Part shown: one piece after another, positions 2,285 through 60,010 of the stretch
How the letters are laid out: every line of letters starts with the position of its first letter
Numbering within the stretch: position 1 is the first letter of the stretch
Source: Octopus vulgaris
Taxonomy: Eukaryota
Reading direction: 5' to 3'
DNA length: 64,000 nt
Assembly (NCBI GenBank): GCA_951406725.2
Contig: OX597814.1
Coordinates: forward strand, 120,466,001-120,530,000
The notes under the pieces: generated by a model
The model's input: the letters and a program-made list of their open reading frames with translations, nothing else
Database searches by the model: none
What the model was told of the DNA's origin: nothing
Made by a program: the position numbers and the translations under genes

Positions 2285-3129
2285 TTATTTATTTTTATTC
2301 GAGATGTAAGCTTTCTATTAATATTTGAAAATAATTGAAAAATAAATGAATTCAATCAATTCAGGAAAACGAAAAATGCAATTAATAACTGTTACACAAT
2401 GATGGTGTGAGAAGAAAGTGACAAATTCCACGAAGATGGAAAAGACCACAATGTAAAAACTGGTAGAATTCATAGAGAAAATGTAACTGTGGTGAAAGAT
2501 TGGAAAGGTAAATGTAACACACGTGGTGTAGATTGGAAACGGCAGTGGGGGAGAAACTTTATCTTTTTTGTGTGAGAAGAATGGTCAGTAAGGAAATGAA
2601 GCAGCAGGGAACAGAAGTGTAATTGGGAACGAAGACGAGGCGGGTGGAATTGGGGAGGAAATAAGCAATTCGAAGCTGTTAACCAAAACATGGGTAGCGA
2701 CGTCTAATAGAAAGTATGAGTGTGTACGTGTGAGGTGTGGTGGTGGTGGTGGTGGAGGTGTTGCAGGTGGGGCTTGTGTGTGTGTGAATGAATGTGATTC
2801 TAGATGCGAATAAGAAATAGATGCATCGTTGATGTCGAGTGGCGTGGAATATAGTGTTCGAGTCTAAACGTAAGACTTAGGGATTTGAGTGGAATAGTCA
2901 CTGGAGAGGATTCTCTGCAAATCTTTTGGACAAATGGTGGGTAGTTTGCTCTATAAAGATCAGAGAGCATATATCGTAGCTCGCTCAACTTACACATACA
3001 CATATACAAACATAAATACACACAAACATACACACAAGTGTGTTTGCATATATACACACTTGTGATCACTTCAAACACCATGATTTTGATATATCTATCT
3101 ATATATATATACATATATATACATATATA

Positions 3130-3626
3130 ATCAAAATCATAGTGTTTGAAGTGATCACAAGTGATGGCGAAATTCTACTCCCATTTATCTTCCCACACTG
3201 CCTCGACTCAACACGGAGACGTATATCTAGTCCTGGAGGATGGAGTGCAGCCCTGGGTCAAGAGAGTGGCTGCTGGAAGACACAAAAATCCCAGTCATGG
3301 CTGTCAGTTAATTTCTGCGACCACATTACCTCTAACGCCTGGCTACCTAACTCTCCAGATTGCAGCTCCTTGATTATTATGTTTTGAGTGCAGTTGAGCG
3401 ATAGAGCAACGAAACTCCTTGAAACACCAAAGATGAACTGAATGCAAAGATTATGGCAACATTCACGCTCTTAATCAAGATGACTTCCCAGAAGAGGTGT
3501 TGGAGATTCTGACATCGTTCGGAGCCAATCGGGAAAAAATTTGAGTGAATAAATTTAATCTTTCCAAGTTCAAGATGTCGGTGTTATTTTCATTTTTGTG
3601 TAATTTAGACGACTGTTTATTCACTG

Positions 3627-3633
<7 letters not shown>
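3130..3633 (+). mobile_element. maT/DD37D-type Tc1-mariner transposase 3' relic with right TIR
   Basis: VFEVITSDGEILLPFIFPH, QPWVKRVAAGR and WLPNSPDCSSL motifs; 3601-3633 is the reverse complement of the TIR at 27905. Confidence 0.85.
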
Positions 3634-3717
<84 letters not shown>

Positions 3718-3901
3718 GAATGGAGTCGAACGAAGATGTTAACAAAATTCCTTTACGAATTCTCCATACTGCCGATAAACATAGGATAATTCATTCACCT
3801 GCTTATATATATATATATGTATATATATATATACACATATATACATATATATATATATACACATATATACATATATTTACATACACACACACACGCTCAC
3901 G

Positions 3902-3944
<43 letters not shown>

Positions 3945-4004
3945 CCTTTTCATCAATATAGATATGTTTGTGATTGTGTAAGTGCGCTGAATATTTATTA
4001 CAGA

Positions 4005-4499
4005 CTAGCAGTATCGCCCGGCGTTGCTCGGGTTTGTAAGGGAAATAACTATATAAGCAATTTTAGAGAGTTACTTCCCTTATAGATGCCAATTCGGGCT
4101 TTCTTAGCCATTTCTGTTTTGGTGTCTTCAAGCCATGAAGTCGATGTTCTAAAAGAACGCTTTACGACGTTGATTTCCTTACACTTCCTTCCCCACAGCT
4201 TCACGAGGGAGGGAAGAAGGGGGAGAAGCAAACAGGTGCAGGTGTGACCATGGACGCCAACTCCGCCGCCATCGACACACGAAAAATTATGCATTAAAAT
4301 GGAATAAAAAATGATGTTAAATTATTTTAAAAATCGTAGACTCATCGTAGACGCGCGCTAATACTGAGACGGGCTTGATATGAATCACGACTATAAGATA
4401 CCCGAATTTGGTTAAACTGCACCGCAAAATGTGGGAGTAGTTAGGAATCTAAATCGAAGGGGACAGACACTCACACAACTACAGTTTTATATATATAGA
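4005..4499 (-). mobile_element. Non-autonomous Helitron, complete
   Basis: Minus strand starts A|TCTATATATA (4499) and ends with hairpin CCCGAGCAACGCCGGG followed by CTAG|T (4005); inserted between A and T with no TSD. Confidence 0.85.
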
Positions 4500-6663
4500 T
4501 ATTTAACTGAAAGAAGCTATGAATGCAAACATATGGTTTTTGGGCTAGTGTTGTACAGAACAATAGGAAGGGAGTCTCATAAGTGACCGGCTCATTGTTA
4601 GTTAAACTTTCCAATCATAATAACTTCGATGAATTGATATATTATTGGTAACATTCCAAGTAATTCTGCAAGAACTGATCTAGCAAAAAGAAAATAGTAC
4701 TTATCTTATTACATAACGTTTACCTTATATCTACTATTAATTACTGATGATATTATGACTGCTGTTAGTTTATGTGTCTTTATATGAAATTGTAAGTAGT
4801 AGTAAATTCATTTTCAGGATTGAGCCCGGCTTAATTACATGAGGTAATATATCTAGTAATGATAAATTCATTTTGGATATAAAATACTTTTAACGATATA
4901 AGACTACTACATTGTACCTCTGAAGATTTCGATATATCGCCCCTGAAGGGATTGATACAAAATTCGCATTCATTCACTCGATTTAGTTGCGATACAGACA
5001 TACAGTATTCGTTATCATCCACAGTGGAAATATATGATTGAACAGTGGATCAATAGCTTGGATTCAGACACAATTGTGCAATTAGACCTGGTGCAATATC
5101 TGTTATAATTTATTCTTTCCTCACATATATCGGTCATTCCACTGTAAATTGGCAAACAATACATCAATCTGAATTCAATTAGAATTCATTTACTTTCTCT
5201 TGCAAGTTTTCTTTTCCTGCTATCTCCCTTCCCTCACTTCTCATTCTAAAAACACGTATATGTGTGCATATGCGTGATAAAGAGACTTTTAGTCTATTTC
5301 AGTGTCATTATCTCCCTATATATTTTTCTCTCAATTTGTTATTCTACGTCTCCCAGTCTTTGTACCTTTTCAGCACTACGAAGTAGGTCAGTACATTTTA
5401 CAACTAAACATTCGGCACGTGTAATTGTCCTTAATACACGCACACAAAGAAAACACACGTTTGTTGTACCAACAAAGATGCTTTTATAAACTGTAATTGA
5501 TGTAGCCTTTGCAGGTGACAATATGAATGAATCCCAAAATGCATTTATTTTGAAACTAACGCATGAAAACAACTCTAAATAAACTCACCTACTGCAATAT
5601 AGAGACTGTGAAAGAAGTAGAAATACAATTGATTTGGGAAAGTTATTGAAAGCATATTTAAGAATTAGCGCGCTAAGAGTGATAGAAAAATGAAAAGTGG
5701 TAAGATTTGAGGGACGAGGCAAGTGGAAATGGGTTTAAAAGAAATATAGTAAGTAAAAGCACAAAGTAATCCCCAACGCAAGTGAAAAATAGTTTCTGAA
5801 GGGGAAGAGATGCAATAAATGAACAATTAGTGAATGTGTGAAACACTGTTATGTATGACTGTGACATACAACGAATACTTTGGCAAAAGGGTGAAACTGT
5901 GTGTGGGTAAGAGTTCTGTGAGGATAATTCAGTTTTCTGTAACTGGAAAAAGGTGACGGATTCAGAAGAAGAGGGAAAAACGAAGTGCATTTCTGATCTG
6001 ATTTGCGAGAAAAGTAATGTTTAAACATTCGAAAACATTGTTGACATAAAGAACGGACAGACAGTTATTTCCAAATACAAGAATGTAAAAACTTACTAGC
6101 GACTGACACTGAAGACAATATTTGAAGTAACAATGATTTTAAGAAAGATTAGGTGTTCATTAGAGTGGTACGGGCGTTCAAGTTCTGAATAATGTCGACA
6201 AGTGAATATTAATGCTTGGAGGGTTAAAATCCTACAGATTATACATAGTTGCCATTTCTTTTGCATTGATATTTACTTAACTATCCTCATACTTTAACAC
6301 CAATGGGGAGCACAGTAGAAAATGCTTTCTCTTTCAAGTAGAAGCAAAATTCTCAAATTGATAACCGAATCTCTTGCAACATATTTTGGGATGTGGTGGT
6401 CCTACGCCACGATGCTACGTAAATTGAAGAGCAATTATAACGTTGCCATATATCATTTATAGAAAATAATATTAATCAAGATCTCATAATGGAACATGCT
6501 TGAAATAGGAGGGAAAGAAAAATATGTATATACTGTAGATTTATAATAATCTAAAGCAGTTGAAGAATATTGTGAATGTTTACAAAGTTATGGGCTACAG
6601 CGTTTACCAACGTTGTTGATATTGGTAATTACACAACACATACGTATGTATTTATATATGTAC

Positions 6664-12476: not shown

Positions 12477-12912
12477 TATATCCAAAAAATATCATACATA
12501 TGTTGAGCAGCTAGATAGTCGGCAATATTCCATAACCGCTATCTCGAACACGCACTGGCGTCTCTCTGTAGCACTGATCAATTCAAATCTAAAAACGAAC
12601 TTCAATAATTAAATAGATTGTAAGTTTAATTACTATGAATGGACTGGTAAAATAATTGATTGAACCTCTTCTGTAGAGAAAACAACATTGTTCAACTATG
12701 CTTAAAAAGAAAACTAAGAAATGTGTGTAAACACAAGCAAACATGATAGAAGAAACAAGTACAACCACTGAAGCCTATCAACGTGTATATCAAAATTTTC
12801 GTAACAAAAATCCTACACCGTCTGTGTATTCACACCAAGGACGTCCATTATCATTCTTAATCGAACTGTAAAACACTTGACTTGCACATTGACATGGAAA
12901 CCATATCGTATG

Positions 12913-12983
<71 letters not shown>

Positions 12984-12984
<1 letters not shown>

Positions 12985-13950
12985 TTCTGAATAATAAATG
13001 GCAAGAAAAACCTCTCTATGGCAAATACCCAAAGAGAGTGAATAATGCAGGTATTGACAAAGCCCTGACCCACCAATGGCTCATGGCCTCTGGCTTAAAA
13101 TCTGAAACAGAAGGGTTTATCATAGCAGCTCAAGATCAATGCCTGCCAACAAGAAACTACCAGGCCAACATATTAATGAACGGCAGTAGCCCAACATGTC
13201 GTGTATGCCGACAACAAAATGAAACCATTGATCATGTTGTCTCCAAATGCAGTCTTCTAGCGCCTACAGAGTGCCTCAACAGGCATGATAGAGCTGCACA
13301 ATATATTCACTGGGTAATTTACAAAAACATGGATGTGCCCCATGAAAAACACTGGTGGTAACACAATCCACCTCCAGTGCTTGAAAATGATCACATCTCA
13401 CTCCTCTGGAACTTCACCATTCAAACCGACAGAAAGATAGATGCAAATAGGCCAGACATCATATTGAAAGACTTCAGACAAAGAACATGCCTCCTCATTG
13501 ATATGACTGTCCCAATCGATATAAACGTATCTGTCAAGACCTACCAAAAAACTGAGCAAATATAAAGATCTTGAAATAGAAATCAGCAAAATGTGGAACC
13601 TGAAGACTAAAACAATACCTGTTGTCATAGGTGCCCTGGGAATGATAGCAAAAGGGGCTGATTGCTACCTAACTCAGATACCAGAAAACCCCAAAATGGC
13701 AGATATTCAAAAGATAGTGCTCATGGGAACTGCTCATATCCTACGCAAAATACTCTCTATGTAATCCCAATTTTTAAAACAAACTTTTTTTTAATTCATG
13801 TATTAGACATTCACTAGTACAACACCAAAAAAATCCCAAATATATGGCACACTAGGCATAACAACAACGTGAACTTCCAACCTGTTGTCTCTTGAGGTCT
13901 CTGGGTGAGACTTGGAGCCAACTTGTACAGACATAAAGCAAAAGTCAAAC

Positions 13951-17095: not shown

Positions 17096-17662
17096 ATTAT
17101 CCTTTTGAACCTCCTTTAACGAACGTATACGTGGAATATGCACCACACCCTGTACTTAACCAATTTGTTCTTCGTGTTATTATTTTTTTTACAACATACA
17201 GTTTGAATTTGCCCCCAAAACAACATGTCAAATTTGTAATTTAAAATTTTCATTTTCACATTGTTCTGAATATTTTTTCTGTAAAATGTTCGATTCAGAA
17301 AAAGAAAAGAATAAAAATGTCCAACGGAATGACGTAGAAAGAATAATTATTCGTAGGCGAATTCCATTTTGGCTTCTCGTTAATGAGCGTTTTGCCAAAA
17401 ATATTCCCGTATTTTGGTGCGAAAGTTTTCAGGTTAAGTAAGTGAGAGGTTTCGCGGCATTAACCGGAAATTGCATAACAATCAGTGGGATATTTTAATG
17501 CTAGTGGAATGTGAAACTGGGTAGTGGTGAAATAACGAATGTTTCGAAAGTGGTACCGTAATGTTTGTCATAAGAACTGTTACAAAGATAGCTTTCTATA
17601 AATTTCTCGTTAATAATGGGAGGAATCGAAAAATAAGCAGTTACCTGAAAAATAGTAGTAAT

Positions 17663-18058
17663 ACTCTTTTATTTGTTTCAGTCATTTGACTGTAGCCATG
17701 CTGGAGCACCGCCTTTAGTCGACTAAATCAATCCCAGGACTTATTTTTGTAAGCCTAGCACCTATTCTATCGATCTATTTTGCAGAACCGCTAAGTTACA
17801 GGGACGTAAACACACCAGCATCGGTTGTCAAACGATGCTGGGGGGACAAACACAGACACACAAACATACACACACACACACACACTCACACATATATATA
17901 TATATACGACGGGCTTCTTTTCAGTTTCCGTCTAACATATCCAATCACAAGGCTTTGGTCGACCCGAGGCTATAGTAGAAAGAACACTCGCCCAAGGTGC
18001 CACGCAGTGGGACTGAATCCGGAACAATGTGGTTCATTAGCAAGCTACTTACCACACA
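17663..18058 (-). mobile_element. SINE family A; 5' end abuts (AAT)n
   Basis: Alignable to the other copies. Confidence 0.95.
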
Positions 18059-18088
18059 ATAATAATAATAATAATAATAATAACAATG

Positions 18089-18157
<69 letters not shown>

Positions 18158-18169
18158 GCAACAACATGA

Positions 18170-18285
18170 AAAATACCTTAGGAATAAGAACCCAGTTTCG
18201 AAATTTCCCGAAGACACCTGATGAAGGCTGGATTTTATATTAACCGAAACGTTATATCCGTCAAATGTAAATAATATAAATAATA
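18170..18285 (+). ncRNA. Short Penelope-type repeat with a minimal hammerhead-ribozyme core (partly deleted)
   Basis: gacac-CTGATGA-a-ggctg..taacc-GAAAC-GTT at 18213-18253; same repeat family as 49660-49910. Confidence 0.6.
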
Positions 18286-39479: not shown

Positions 39480-40190
39480 TATGGATGGATGTTGCCTCTT
39501 TATTCATTATTTGTTGCATTAGGTGTTCTGTGAACATTTTAATAGAAGGGGAAAATTAAGAAATTTGGATTAAGATTCCTAGCGAACATTTCTATGGGTT
39601 CACTAATCTTTAACTGTCTGTATTGTGGGTGGCGGATTTGTTCTTTGTGGAGAGTGGTTCTTCGACGGAGTAATATTCCTTTTTGGCCAATATAATTGTT
39701 ACCACATCCGAAAAATGTAATGGCAGATATTACAATTTCCGAGGCACAGGTGAAATTTGATTTGATCTTAAATATTTCACCTCGTTTAAAGTGGAATTCT
39801 TAGCCCTCCAAAAGGTGGGGCATGTACTGCAGTTAGGTCCACCATATTTTTTCCCTTTTGGTTCTGTTGTTCATGGATATAGTCTTATGCTTTTAATTTT
39901 TTTTTCAGTGATTTAGGTTGCCTTTTGCTTTTGATAATTCTGTATGAGCTTAAAATTTTGTTCGTTGTTCTATCTCCTGTGAGGATTGGAAGATTTTGGG
40001 TAATAAATGAAGGTATTAAACAAGATAAGGCAATAGATATACGAACATTACGAGAAGCCAGCCGAAATACTAAACCAGATTTAAAAATAGTCCCGTACAT
40101 CTCCACACATAACCCTAGAAACAACGAAGCCTTCAACATTATCATTGAAAAACCTCCCATCCTTACAGGAGATAAAACAATGAACAAATG
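39480..40190 (-). mobile_element. Penelope-like element relic (GIY-YIG endonuclease) with an inverted 5' segment
   Basis: Minus strand: FKIKSNFTCASEIVISAITFFGCGNNYIGQKGILLRRRTTLHKEQIRHPQYRQL, preceded by CxxC. The upstream part (VPYISTHNP) lies on the plus strand at 40005-40190. Confidence 0.85.
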
Positions 40191-40873
40191 ATAGATTTAT
40201 AGCTGGGTAAGTAATTGACGAAAACATAAAATGAAATTGAGCCAGTGCATGTATTCATTATAATTGGCGTAATAACCCTCACAAGATACAAGATGATAAA
40301 CGTATATAAACAGATTAATAATGGTAATATTTAATCGATTGAACGTGGAATTGAAGAATTATTCAATACATTAGGGTAGCATTTGTTAGTCTTACATCAG
40401 GAGTAGATAAACCTGTAACATTTCTCTCGTACGAGGAAGGAAAATTCTCAGCTTTTAGTTTCAGTGAAACGTTTAATTAAACCAAAATATTAGCAATAAG
40501 CATGTATAGAATTTCATTTTCGTAAAAGTGCAATTTTCAGGTTAAATTTTCTGGAACATTTCTGTTGCTGAATGTGTTTTTCTTACTAATTAACAAATCT
40601 AAATGAAATAATTAAAATTTAAAAACCAACTATTTTTTTCTTAAAAATAGACTCGTTTCCCAGAGGTTATGTAACTGTAACTTACTTAGCGAAGAGCTCC
40701 AATATGTTTCTAACCTCGGAATTTATGTACACAAATATCAATAACCACGAAAATGCAGCTGCACATACTTACATAGCAAAATTAATTATGCATATTTCCA
40801 TAGAGATATGCATCTATAAATACTTACAATGATAAATACACCTACATATATACATTTTTACACACACGTATAA

Positions 40874-49659: not shown

Positions 49660-49910
49660 TGAGTTCAGTTCTATATTTAAGAGATGAGGAATTATTAACA
49701 TCATTTAGAGTATTTGCAGTTGACGGATATTTGTTCTCATCTTGTTTGCTTTTAACACAACCTTTCGGCTGATATACCCTCCAGCCTCATCAGGTATCTT
49801 GGGAAAAATACCTTAGGGATTAGAACCCAGGTTCGAAAATTCCCCAAGACATCTGTTGAAGGCTAGGGGTATATCCGTCAAATGTAAATAATGTAAATAA
49901 TGTAAATATC
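49660..49910. ncRNA. Two inverted copies of the hammerhead-bearing Penelope-type repeat
   Basis: Minus strand 49754-49799: gatac-CTGATGA-ggctg-loop-cagcc-GAAA-g-GTT-gtgtt. Plus strand 49806-49900 aligns to 18172-18280. Confidence 0.65.
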
Positions 49911-55017: not shown

Positions 55018-56005
55018 TCAGGTCATCCCATAAGTTCTGTCCGAATTTTGAATAAAGAAACCAAGTGATCATATGTTATATTTAATTAAAATTTAATCAT
55101 CAATATACTTTTCCTGATTATCTATGGCTTCCTTCTATCTATTTACAAGCTTTTTAATCCAATCAATGTAAAACGCTTTCGGTTTCAAAATGAACACTGA
55201 AACCTCAGTTACGATCTCCTCCTGGCTTGCGAAAGTTATATCCCCCAAATGATTCTGTAAACTACAAAACAAATGGTAGCCTGAAAAAACAATGTCGGGA
55301 GAATAAAGTGGATGAGGAATTTTTTTCCCAACCAAGCTCTTTGATTTTCTGTGATGTGAACTTTACCGTGCGGTGTCACGCATTGTCCTGATGAAACATC
55401 ACTCATTTTCGATTCAATAAAGCGGGTCTTTTTTTCTCCAAAGCTTGGTTCAAACGCTCTAATTGCTGACAGTAGACTTGAGCATTGATTGTTACATTAG
55501 GCAGTAACAATTCAAACTGAATTATTCCTTTGCAATCCCACCAGATAGAGAGAAGAAACTTTTTTTCCATGAAGGCACCTTCTCGTTTGTGGTTGAGCTT
55601 TTTTTCCATTTTACCAAGCCACAGATTATGACGCTTAACATTTCGATAGAAGATCCATTTTTCATCACCAGTCACAAGTCTATCCAAAAAGGGTGAAATG
55701 AGTTTGCAAGAATGTAGAGGAGAACAAATGTCAACTGTCTGGTTACCTTGGTTTGATATTGCTTTCCCTGCACATCATGCTTGCAAACGGTCTGAACCGA
55801 TCTGCGCCAAATCCAAGTACCTTCCGATAAATTTACGTTGCACCCACCATATCTCAGTGATCACAGGATGTTATCAGTTTCTGGTTTTGCCTTCCACTGC
55901 TTTCCACATCTCCTGGATTGCACCTGATTTCTATATATTTCGACTATTTCAGCATCATCGCCGTTCGTACCTTCCCTACTCTATAAATTTTGATTGTTGA
56001 CCCCT
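55018..56005 (-). mobile_element. Mariner (DD34D) relic lacking its 5' end
   Basis: LVTGDEKWIFY, LSIWWDCKGII and PHPLYSPDIVFSGYHLF motifs; TA|TCAGGTCATCCCATAAGTTCTGTCCGA TIR at 55018. Confidence 0.92.
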
Positions 56006-56237: not shown

Positions 56238-57793
56238 GGTATTCATTGATATCTTACTAAGGCTTTTGACTTTGTCGGTCGAACTGCCTTGTGAGAGATT
56301 TTGAGGAGACTTGGATGCACAGTAAAGTCTCTCACTTTTCTGAAGCAGTTTCATGATGGCATGGAGGTAAAGAAAAGCATTCGCGAAAAGCTCTCGGAGC
56401 CTATCTCTGTCATGAATGGGGTAAAATAACATGACATGTCAGCGCCCACTCTCTTCACCCTCTATTTTACTATAGTTTTTCCATTGGCTTTCAATGGCTC
56501 CTTTATTTATATATCATATACCGCACAGCAGTAAAAATCCTAAATATCAGAAGCCTGTCAACTAAGTCAAGGACGTTCTCAACTCTTATTAGAGTTTTGA
56601 TATTGTCATTCCTACTGAGGAGGACATGCAAAATCTTATGAATGCAATTTCAGTGGCTTGTGAGGCACTTGACGTAAACATAAACCTGTTTTAACTAAAA
56701 CTGTTGTCATGTTTCAGCCAGCACCAGGAATGCCATACATAGAACCTGGTATCTTCGTGTATGGAAGAAAACTTTGTGTAGTTTCTAGGTTTGTTTACTT
56801 AGGGAGCACACTAAACAAATCAGCGAATCTTGATGATGAAGTGTCACTACGCATTCAGAAAGCCAGTTTTGCTTTTGGCAAACTGGAAGACCGTCTATGG
56901 TCTAGATATGGTATTTCCACTACTTCAATGATTAAGATGTATAATACATGTATCTTAACCTCTTTATTGTATAGTTGCGAAACGTGGGATGTGTATTGTA
57001 AGCTTTTAAAAGTTATGGAACTTTTCCATCAACAATGTCTCAGAAGGATTTTGAGGATCAGCTGGAAAATGCTTGTGAGTGACGATCAGGTGCTGAGATA
57101 GGGAAATGCTTCTGTATTGGACCTTTGCTATTGCAGTAGAGGTTGTGATGTAGTGGACACCTTAGAATGACAGACAACAGAATGCCTAAATAACTTTTTA
57201 CAGAGAATTGGTGACAGGTAAGTGTCCCTCCCACAAACCAAAACGTTCAAAGTCCTGAAGTCGGGATTGAATAAGATAAAATGTCCAGTTCACAATTGGG
57301 AGAATTTAGCGCATTGCCGAGACAAATGGAAAAAAACTGTGTATATAGGCAAAAATGAATTTGAAAAGAAGAGAATGAGGCATGCAAAGATCAAAAGAAA
57401 GGTGAGAAAAAGTGACAGGAATGTTTTAACAAGCATTAATGAACGTGATGATCTTACCTGTGATCAATGTTGTGGAAAGATTTGCCTTATTAAGGCTGGG
57501 CTAAAGAACCATATCAAATCACACATTGCACAACCTGACATCGATTAGAGATGGACAGCTGATTTCGAATGCATACTCTGTCATAAAGTGTGCAGATCAA
57601 AATGTGGATTGCAAAGGCATAGTAATGCTCATGGAGCTGTAATCACCAGGCTTTCTTGCACTAATTGTCAAAAAGCATGCAAGTCTTTGACAGACCTCAA
57701 AAGTCATATTCGTACAGCTCATCGATGATATTATAGGGCATAAAGGAGTCAGGTAATGGCTCAACTCGAAATTGAGTTGGAAACCATCATCAT
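56238..57793 (+). mobile_element. 5'-truncated RTE-clade LINE with three C-terminal C2H2 zinc fingers
   Basis: LTKAFD, FVYLGS, LLYSCETW and FHQQCLRRILRISW motifs; three CxxC-x12-H fingers ending at the stop at 57728; 3' hairpin and (CAT)n tail. Confidence 0.92.
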
Positions 57794-58641: not shown

Positions 58642-59649
58642 TTGTTGGCATCCTTTTTGTCTCGGGAGACAATGGAGTTGCGCATAAAATTATCTAGTCT
58701 GGCTTTTACATTTCATGTCCTAATACATTTCCTGCTGTGGCTGTGTAGTCCTATCCTGGACAAACACTCCCTCTGGCAGGTGCCGCAAATGTAGCGAAGA
58801 CTTTGCCTGGCTGGGTGTAATGCCATAGTTTCTCGTTGACGTTATTTCTTGTTTTTCCATATCTCCTCTCTCTCTATCTGTCACTCCTTTGTGTTCCCTC
58901 TTTTACGGTACGTCGCCAATCTCCACGGTTGCTGGCAACTGCTTCCCAGTTGCTAATATTGATGTTGCAGGCATTCATGTCCCATTTGCAAACATCCTTG
59001 TATCGTAAGAACGGTCTTCCCACATACCTAGTGCCCCTAGCAAGCTCTCCGTAGAGTATGTCCTTGGCGATTCTGCCATCTTCCATACGGCTAACATGTT
59101 CAAGCCAACTCATACGTCTTTGTGTGAGGAGTGCAAACATGCTTGGTATTCCTGCTTGCTTGAAGACACCTTTGTTGGGGACATGATTCTGCCATTTGAT
59201 GCGAAGGATTTCCCAGAGGCAGCGCAGATGAAAGATATTTAGGCGACGCTCTTGGTGTGTGTATGGCGTCCAAGTCTCACTTCCATACAGTAGAGTGCTA
59301 AGTCTGGTAAATCTTCCTTTTTGTGGTCTTGGTCAGCTTATTGTTGTCCCATGCCCGTTTGGAGAGTTGGACCATCACAGTAGCTGCCTTGCCAATGCAT
59401 ATATTGAGCTCAGCATCAAGAGATAGGTTGTAGGTGACGGTAGAGCCAAGATAGTTAAACTTCTCCACCACCTGTAATCTGTTTTGAGCAAGCGGGAAAC
59501 AACTTTGGCTTAGTTATCAGCCTCAAGAAGACAAACATCATGGTTCAGGCTACATGGGACATCCCAAACATACATATTAGAGACCACAGATTACAGGAGG
59601 TGGAGAAGTTTACCTATCTTGGCTCTACCGTCACCTACAAACTATCCCT

Positions 59650-59653
<4 letters not shown>
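58642..59653 (-). mobile_element. 5'-truncated RTE LINE (second family) with a 5' inversion, inserted in (TA)n
   Basis: WLEHVSRMEDGRIAKDILYGEL..GRPFLRYKD; 3' end ccattgtctcccgagacaaaaaggatgccaac; segment 59490-59653 (GLVISLKKTNIM..EKFTYLGS) lies on the plus strand. Confidence 0.92.
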
Positions 59654-59706
<53 letters not shown>

Positions 59707-59774
59707 ATCGACTCATATATACCACGTCTCCTCAATAAATATCCGGATAATTGCCATAGTAACGACTATTGCTA

Positions 59775-60010
59775 AAGTACGCAGAGTAAATCTGTTCTGC
59801 ACAGATTAACCTTCAACTCTGCTGTGCATACATACACAGTTTTCGCGTTCTATCTCACTTCCGCTGATTACAGCAGTGCTTGGAAGGAAGATATGTAGCG
59901 TGTGATCGTCGCATTGACAATTACAGAGAAATTCTGCCAAAAGCTTGACGATACCTGCTCAGAGGCCTATGTAAAGTTTTCGAAATATTTTCACCGTTCT
60001 CCACACAATC
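59775..60010 (+). mobile_element. Possible mariner-derived 5' relic
   Basis: KFCQKLDDTCSEAYVK resembles mariner N-terminal (IKFC.KLG.T..E) sequence. Confidence 0.45.

What the first reader, a model, noticed from the sequence alone, without database searches (positions are those of the whole stretch)
18170..18285. Dispersed short repeat carrying a minimal type-I hammerhead ribozyme
Seen: CTGATGA-stem II-GAAAC-GTT with the palindrome AACGTT in place of helix III. Combining this copy with the 49754-49799 copy reconstructs helix I (GACAC/GTGTT), helix II (GGCTG/CAGCC) and both conserved core strands. Established: Penelope-like elements carry minimal hammerheads with palindromic helix III that cleave as dimers. 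Inference: a non-autonomous, ribozyme-processed retroelement family (retrozyme-like or solo pseudo-LTR) with no ORF. Each copy here has lesions, so activity is not shown.
Basis: partly seen in the sequence, partly recalled or inferred. Interest (0 to 1): 0.75.

Follow-up and report, generated by a model that had tools for sequence, protein, structure and literature searches.

The report
Penelope retrotransposon end with tRNA-type promoter
This is a broken end-piece of a common protein-coding jumping gene that carries a known, probably self-cutting RNA motif; the unusual part is that the gene's copies begin at a captured tRNA-like sequence and its family sequence lacks the stop signal of the cell's tRNA-making enzyme, so that enzyme likely reads it.

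Summary
The motif is real, but the family is not ORF-less. 18168-18284 is a 5'-truncated, internally deleted copy of the terminal repeat (pLTR) of an autonomous Penelope/Poseidon-type retroelement: 18 of 30 reverse-transcriptase loci run through a GIY-YIG nuclease into this repeat, and 9 of 30 ORF-start loci show the repeat running in frame into an 831-codon ORF. About 42,000 loci (12 in 800 kb). The minimal type-I hammerhead is the kind already described for these elements; both window loci are damaged, and RNA reads show no cleavage ends. What is unusual: the pLTR starts with a tRNA-derived A/B-box head, 22 of 30 copies that reach it start there, and the 2.6-kb sense strand has no run of four T's, against 7-9 in another Penelope-like family of this genome. 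This points to RNA polymerase III transcription, which I found in no paper for an autonomous Penelope-like element; it is untested, and 1 of 37 headless relatives is also T-run-free. The scan noted this family and its tRNA head before on other DNA (e1-8669850, e1-8663237).

The parts
18058..18167 (+). (AAT/AAC)n run; in full copies it lies inside the pLTR between the tRNA-like head and the body; this copy is truncated within it, so the head is missing
18168..18212 (+). pLTR body; holds the family's ORF start codon, here mutated to ATA at 18184-18186
18213..18253 (+). Minimal type-I hammerhead, damaged: helix I 5' strand, core CTGATGA, bulged A, weakened helix II, GAAA, palindromic AACGTT; predicted cut after 18253; helix I 3' strand deleted
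18254..18284 (+). pLTR 3' part after a 28-nt deletion, ending at the shorter of the family's two 3' end clusters (inferred RT start site)
49666..49807 (-). Second locus, copy with the long 3' end ('tail'); hammerhead at 49754-49798 with both helices but broken palindrome and no bulged A
49803..49901 (+). Second locus, inverted partner with the short 3' end and an internal deletion through the hammerhead; the back-to-back pair is the typical Penelope-like insertion

Best explanation
[quoted passage not shown] Shown: unit order is ORF (RT, GIY-YIG) - stop - about 24 nt - tRNA-like A/B boxes - (AAT)n - ATG - hammerhead - two 3' end points - ORF of the next tandem copy. Inferred: transcription starts just before the head of an upstream pLTR (a TATA-like TTTATAA formed by the previous ORF's stop lies about 25-30 nt ahead); the RT starts internally at one of two sites about 30 nt apart behind the hammerhead, as shown in vitro for the anole element; starting in the first pLTR of the RNA copies only head-to-tail, which gives the mass of short copies that begin at the head; starting in the second pLTR gives ORF-bearing copies; fold-back or strand switching gives the inverted partners. 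The window copies are passive leftovers.
For: 18 of 30 RT loci carry ORF end plus this repeat downstream in the same orientation, 24 of 30 carry it at all (about 0.05 per locus expected). 9 of 30 ORF-start loci match continuously from the repeat into the ORF. Family majority ORF: 831 codons, no stop, RT and GIY-YIG motifs; Pfam RVT_1; full-length relatives of 813-855 aa. Inverted partner in 35 of 58 loci; 3' ends in two clusters, 17 and 9 of 29, as in PMC11167929 and PMC8557442. Hammerhead: the only subfamily-level change in the core is at the free position N7 (T 62, A 33 of 98); 20 of 79 related metagenome loci hold a minimal hammerhead on the coding strand, with compensatory changes in 9 of 10 pairs across 12 sequences (partly by construction). 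Head: 50 of 78 columns identical to a genomic tRNA-Arg(TCT), z 6.1; matches an A-box/B-box pattern; 5' ends pile up there in 7 of 12 arbitrary-sample loci and 22 of 58 loci chosen by their 3' part. No T>=4 run in 2,614 nt of sense strand (expected 2.9 in the ORF, P=0.027; whole-unit shuffle P=0.008) against 7-9 in 2,343 nt of a second Penelope-like family with the same T content.
Against: No direct evidence of Pol III use or of cleavage: RNA reads lie equally in both directions, 88-89% run on into unlike sequence, and no place has a pile of starts or ends (one study, possibly another species, ordinary RNA-seq). The T-run test is modest, uses a majority sequence while most controls are single copies, and 1 of 37 related ORFs without a head is also T-run-free over about 2.1 kb (L341). 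A small palindrome sits at the head's start and could stop or fold back the RT by itself. ARAGORN and Rfam do not call the head a tRNA. An uncapped Pol III RNA would need an unusual route to translation. Only 8 of 93 copies keep a strict intact hammerhead, no long ORF copy exceeds 95.4% identity to the majority and the longest open frame seen was 569 aa, so the family looks inactive now. Clade placement rests on domain features, not on a tree with named references.
Confidence: 0.65

Rival explanations
1. Same autonomous element, but transcribed by RNA polymerase II like Drosophila Penelope; the tRNA-like head is a passenger (an old SINE head in the 3' UTR) and copies pile up there because the start site or a hairpin that stops the RT happens to lie at it.
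For: D. virilis Penelope has a LINE-like internal promoter (PMC2377424, passages). A palindrome overlaps the head start and several copies fold back exactly there. A TATA-like element lies 25-30 nt upstream and would suit Pol II too. T-run-free coding DNA occurs in 1 of 37 headless relatives. No Pol III-type RNA seen.
Against: The pile-up coincides with tRNA position 1 and intact A/B boxes while tRNA stem pairing has decayed (and inspection); 14 of the 22 piled ends lie at 149-164, at or past the palindrome's centre; T-runs are absent from the whole unit including the UTR; the head is also present in an older RT-linked variant (L104, L182, L227).
Confidence: 0.25
2. One reading: a non-autonomous, ribozyme-processed retrozyme or SINE lineage that multiplies on its own with borrowed Penelope enzymes.
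For: None of 12 arbitrary-sample loci carries RT sequence and 7 start at the head; tRNA head plus hammerhead recalls Schistosoma SM-alpha (PMC6765202, passages); retrozymes derive from pLTRs (bioRxiv 10.64898/2026.07.22.740005, part 1 of 5).
Against: The identical head, body and hammerhead are part of the coding element; short and ORF-linked copies share the N7 variants (7:3 and 42:26) and have similar divergence (90.2% and 92.0%); no tandem arrays noted; no 5' or 3' ends at the predicted cut site as a class.
Confidence: 0.08
3. Chance resemblance to a hammerhead core in an unrelated repeat.
For: The bare pattern occurs 4 times in the window; no Rfam match; monomer folding is not better than shuffles (z -0.9 to +1.0).
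Against: Complete helices and core in the family majority, right position in a Penelope-like element, same architecture with different helices in other families.
Confidence: 0.01

Closest known systems
Penelope/Poseidon PLEs, e.g. Poseidon_Ac of the green anole (Frangieh et al. 2024, PMC11167929; parts 1-2 of 4 read: main text and start of methods)
   Same: Single RT + C-terminal GIY-YIG ORF, tandem pLTR, hammerhead overlapping the ORF start, two internal RT start sites leaving a 30-40-nt tail, no reads ending at the cut site in RNA-seq.
   Different: Here the start codon lies about 34 nt before the core rather than at helix II; the pLTR carries a tRNA-like head and an (AAT)n run, not described for that element in the parts read; activity was shown there, not here.
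Minimal hammerheads of metazoan PLEs (Cervera and De la Pena 2014, PMC4209133; parts 1-2 of 4 read)
   Same: Type I, helix I of 5 bp, enlarged helix II, unpaired base between 9 and 10.1, G10.1-C11.1 pair, palindromic 15.2-16.2, mostly dispersed single truncated copies and inverted pairs.
   Different: Nothing in the ribozyme itself; activity there was low and only as dimers or trimers.
Schistosoma SM-alpha / Sj-alpha SINE-like repeats (seen only through the review PMC6765202, passages)
   Same: Pol III-type promoter followed by a type-I hammerhead in a high-copy repeat.
   Different: Those are non-coding, often tandem repeats (with canonical hammerheads per PMC4209133); here the head and hammerhead are part of an autonomous coding element.
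TRIMp3 elements Cassandra, Helenus, Ajax (Kojima 2024, PMC10886601, passages)
   Same: Small-RNA-derived Pol III promoter inside a terminal repeat, proposed to arise by SINE insertion into the repeat.
   Different: They are short non-autonomous LTR elements; the paper argues that autonomous partners must use Pol II because Pol III is poorly processive, the opposite of what is proposed here.
Animal non-LTR retrozymes (bioRxiv 10.64898/2026.07.22.740005, part 1 of 5 read)
   Same: Type-I hammerhead, kinship to pLTRs.
   Different: Defined as non-coding tandem repeats with at least two units; this family is coding and its short copies are dispersed or inverted.

Membership tests
Penelope/Poseidon PLE | Single ORF with RT and C-terminal GIY-YIG endonuclease with two cysteines inside the core and two histidines | tested here: met
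   ORFs of L151, L152, L170; 831-codon majority ORF; Pfam RVT_1. Pfam's GIY-YIG model did not hit this family's nuclease; the motif was read by eye, and 55-68%-identical relatives carry the same precomputed domain set.
Penelope/Poseidon PLE | No extra CX2-5CxxC linker before the nuclease (present in Neptune/Nematis, PMC8557442) | tested here: met
   Absent in L151/L170, present in the control family L167.
Penelope/Poseidon PLE | Tandem pLTR, inverted 5' partner, optional 30-40-nt tail | tested here: met
   9 of 30 tandem junctions; 35 of 58 inverted; two 3' end clusters about 30 nt apart.
Penelope/Poseidon PLE | RT phylogeny with named clade members | not tested
   No named reference sequences were fetched; no tree built.
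Minimal type-I hammerhead | Core C3 U4 G5 A6 N7 G8 A9, G12 A13 A14, A15.1-U16.1, H17 | tested here: met
   Family majority; core letters also present in the copy at 18218-18253.
Minimal type-I hammerhead | Helices I and II with compensatory changes | tested here: met
   Met for the family majority and across families (sequences were picked by a descriptor that demands the helices). Not met by the single copy at 18168-18284 (helix I strand deleted).
Minimal type-I hammerhead | Self-cleavage as dimer or with protein | not testable with these tools
   RNA-seq shows no piled ends, as also reported for the active anole ribozyme.
Non-LTR retrozyme | Non-coding | tested here: not met
   Repeat is contiguous and in frame with an RT-EN ORF.
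Non-LTR retrozyme | Head-to-tail tandem units each with a hammerhead | tested here: not met
   None among 12 arbitrary-sample loci, whereas a true 353-359-nt array of another family was found in the same sample (L171).
tRNA-derived SINE | tRNA-derived head with A and B boxes at the 5' end | tested here: met
   parent tRNA not resolved; ARAGORN and Rfam negative.
tRNA-derived SINE | Own lineage, separate from the autonomous partner | tested here: inconclusive
   No difference seen at the few sites compared; only 12 arbitrary copies.
tRNA-derived SINE | Transcription by RNA polymerase III | not testable with these tools
   Indirect only: boxes, 5' pile-up, no T>=4 run.

The most novel reading that the evidence does not exclude
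An autonomous, protein-coding Penelope-like retrotransposon that captured a tRNA-type promoter and purged Pol III terminators from its whole 2.6-kb unit, so that RNA polymerase III makes both its coding RNA and, through internal reverse-transcription starts, tens of thousands of SINE-like copies: a coding element with a built-in SINE, and a direct route from PLE to hammerhead-bearing SINEs such as SM-alpha.
Probability: 0.33. Interest if true: 0.75.

Novelty: new variant of a known kind. Interest (0 to 1): 0.45.

Why it matters
The hammerhead as flagged is ordinary for Penelope-like elements. The promoter question is not: autonomous retroelements are assumed to need Pol II (argued in PMC10886601) or host co-transcription. 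A coding element read by Pol III would make testable how an uncapped RNA is translated, whether the in-ORF hammerhead removes the start codon to switch the RNA from message to template, and how SINEs can be born inside an autonomous element. It also warns annotators that a tRNA-headed 270-290-nt repeat here is not an independent SINE.

Tried and rejected
Rfam scans of the window, a full copy, the head and an intact hammerhead gave no hammerhead or tRNA match among listed rows; ARAGORN found none in 19 loci and was pure noise at a lowered threshold. First reading, a stand-alone tRNA-headed SINE, was dropped when copies extending into the ORF end appeared. A CCGA core variant looked common but was query bias: 5 of 98 in the less biased set. 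The idea that this family seeds the genome's (AAT)n runs failed: 2 of 107 runs in 800 kb were flanked by family sequence (crude motif test). Monomer folding energies are not unusual. The look-up of sequencing runs: no RNA holder listed; not used as evidence. The first read-laying used a reference with a 3-nt gap at the cut site, so it was repeated on a gap-free one. The A/B-box pattern was faulty (missed the family itself) and was corrected: 2 of 79 related loci match, neither between stop codon and hammerhead (L413 inspected, L412 not). One search timed out and was rerun. In one search two loci (L118, L119) were oriented wrongly for the printed tails; counts were taken from the BLAST rows and one search's strands. 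Lunse et al. (PMC5785218) is not held; one search fetched an unrelated paper. Look-ups by words and by sequence in earlier findings returned nothing.

Full report
Observation. The copy at 18168-18284 has the core CTGATGA, a bulged A, a weakened helix II, GAAAC and the palindrome AACGTT, then a 28-nt deletion that removes the 3' strand of helix I. The second locus (49666-49901) is a back-to-back pair; its minus-strand copy has both helices but a broken palindrome. The bare pattern is only slightly above chance (4 against 0.82), and Rfam lists no hammerhead (in one search only 150 of 251 rows were shown). The case rests on the family.

The family. The window lies in G000, 2.8 Gb in 227 contigs; its size and repeats look octopus-like (my recall, not a tool result). 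In 80 stretches of 10 kb taken at round coordinates a profile found 12 family loci (one weak; one further weak hit to an unrelated tRNA-like head was not counted), i.e. about 42,000 loci, Poisson range roughly 22,000-73,000. Full short copies read: small palindrome, tRNA-like head, (AAT/AAC)n, unique body, hammerhead, about 85 nt of 3' sequence.

It is not ORF-less. Some copies continue upstream into the end of a GIY-YIG domain. Starting from an RT fragment beside one copy, 18 of 30 RT loci carry the ORF end and this repeat downstream in the same orientation, 24 of 30 carry it in some form. Searching from the ORF's other end, 9 of 30 loci match continuously from the repeat into the ORF: the tandem pLTR layout. 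The majority ORF starts at an ATG about 34 nt before the hammerhead core, has 831 codons and no stop. The hammerhead is thus read in frame; a 55%-identical 847-aa protein from another source shares that N-terminal peptide (P0003). There is no zinc-linker before the nuclease, so the element fits Penelope/Poseidon by the features in PMC8557442 (passages); no tree was built. Inverted partners occur in 35 of 58 loci and 3' ends fall in two clusters about 30 nt apart (17 and 9 of the 29 loci whose query did not demand the long end). This matches the two internal RT start sites shown for the anole element (PMC11167929, parts 1-2 of 4). Long copies are 81.6-95.4% identical to the majority (median 92.2%, 79 hits), and the longest open frame among 150 RT matches was 569 aa: the family looks extinct or nearly so.

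The ribozyme. The majority has a 5-bp helix I, 6-bp helix II, G10.1-C11.1, the bulged base and a palindromic 15.2-16.2, the features listed in PMC4209133 (parts 1-2 of 4). Among 105 less biased copies the core decays like the rest (0.91 against 0.93), CpG sites fastest; the one subfamily-level change in the core is at N7, the free position (T 62, A 33 of 98); 8 of 93 copies are strictly intact. Other families in this genome and 20 of 79 related metagenome loci have the same core with other helices; across 12 sequences 89% of cells pair and 9 of 10 pairs show compensatory change, partly by construction because the descriptor required helices. Published relatives cut weakly, as dimers or with the protein. 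Three RNA-seq runs of one study, perhaps of another species, show about equal depth in both directions, 88-89% of reads running on into unlike sequence and no piled starts or ends: read-through of embedded copies, no evidence on cleavage. All this is a known kind.

The unusual part. The head aligns to tRNA genes of this genome (best Arg(TCT), 50 of 78 columns, z 6.1; Cys, Arg(TCG) and Thr(TGT) close behind; only 8 anticodon types were among the 30 loci). It keeps A and B boxes though ARAGORN and Rfam do not recognise it. Copies start there: 7 of 12 arbitrary-sample loci begin at profile 140-165 (tRNA position 1 is 150) and 1 further upstream; of 58 loci chosen by their 3' part, 22 begin at 134-165, at most 8 further upstream (two of these are fold-backs miscounted), 15 at the (AAT)n run or with an unlinked head, 13 elsewhere. 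The previous ORF's stop forms TTTATAA about 25-30 nt ahead. The sense strand of the 2,614-nt unit has no T>=4 run, the Pol III stop signal (established knowledge), against 29 A>=4 runs; synonymous permutation expects 2.9 (P=0.027), base shuffling 4.5 (P=0.008). A second Penelope-like family of this genome with the same T content has 7-9 in 2,343 nt (6 copies), four other retroelement frames have as many or more than expected, and 37 related ORFs from metagenomes have 376 against 342 expected. Against: one of those 37 (L341, no head) is free of T-runs over about 2.1 kb of coding DNA; two frames of our family that include flanking DNA had 4 runs each and one single copy had 3; majority and single copies are not strictly comparable.

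Mechanism. Shown: anatomy, in-frame overlap, end positions. Inferred: RNA starts at the head, likely by Pol III with the upstream TATA supplied only in tandem copies; RT starting in the first pLTR copies just head-to-tail and yields the short copies; starting in the second yields coding copies. Solo copies lack the upstream flank and the downstream ORF bases that the anole protein needs, which would explain why no separate SINE lineage was seen (small sample). I put identity as a PLE pLTR at 0.95, Pol III use of the head at about 0.55, and full-length Pol III transcription at about 0.33.

Literature. I found no description of a Pol III-type promoter in an autonomous PLE, or of this family, in searches with terms octopus/Penelope/hammerhead, SINE/tRNA-derived/Penelope/hammerhead, Penelope/polymerase III/SINE/pseudo-LTR, SINE/'mobilized by Penelope', Penelope-like/RNA polymerase III/tRNA/promoter, octopus/SINE/tRNA-Arg (77), autonomous/'transcribed by pol III', octopus/Penelope/Poseidon; most hits were seen as listings only. 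Repbase, Dfam, subscription papers and all supplements were not seen and may hold it. Nearest precedents: Schistosoma SM-alpha (via PMC6765202, passages), TRIMp3 (PMC10886601, passages), the LINE-like promoter of D. virilis Penelope (PMC2377424, passages), retrozymes from pLTRs (bioRxiv 10.64898/2026.07.22.740005, part 1 of 5). PMC6962438 (passages) only counts hammerheads in a squid genome. Two earlier notes of this scan reached the same family and the tRNA head on other DNA; my reading was set down before I saw them, and they are not independent support.

Verdict. Observation confirmed; interpretation partly right. A known ribozyme in a known retroelement class, with a promoter variant that is plausible, testable and unproven. 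Interest 0.45.

Noticed in passing
L171 about 3075-4560 and an inverted part: Tandem array of 353-359-nt units, each with a type-I hammerhead with a longer palindromic helix III: a true retrozyme-like family, 7 hits.
   Followed up: no
L183, L203, L227, L241, L244, L247, L020: A second common minimal-hammerhead family with different helices, the same AACGTT palindrome and often C at core position 4.
   Followed up: no
L182, L228: Hammerheads with the U3-A8 core variant, as reported for Schistosoma elements in PMC4209133.
   Followed up: no
L311-L340 (from L167:7909-8787): A young Penelope-like family with a zinc linker (Neptune-like) and many intact 781-aa frames; used only as control. A diverged fragment seems to lie at window 39883-40191 (by eye).
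   Followed up: partly
window 17662-18058: Copy of a very frequent 400-bp repeat (about 9 copies in the window) whose tRNA-like head on the minus strand is cut where the (AAT)n run of the finding begins.
   Followed up: no
L104, L182, L227: Older variant of the family with a short insertion just after the start codon; it also has the tRNA-like head and is RT-linked in L104.
   Followed up: partly
window 12861-13361, 55403-55774, 56673-57548, 58874-59809: Fragments that look like an R4/Dong-type LINE beside an (AAT)n run, a mariner transposase and RTE-type LINEs (names by recall).
   Followed up: no
L204:5916-5978, L240:1321-1381, L197:4849-4913: Other tRNA-like SINE heads weakly similar to the family's head; possible donors, not traced.
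   Followed up: no
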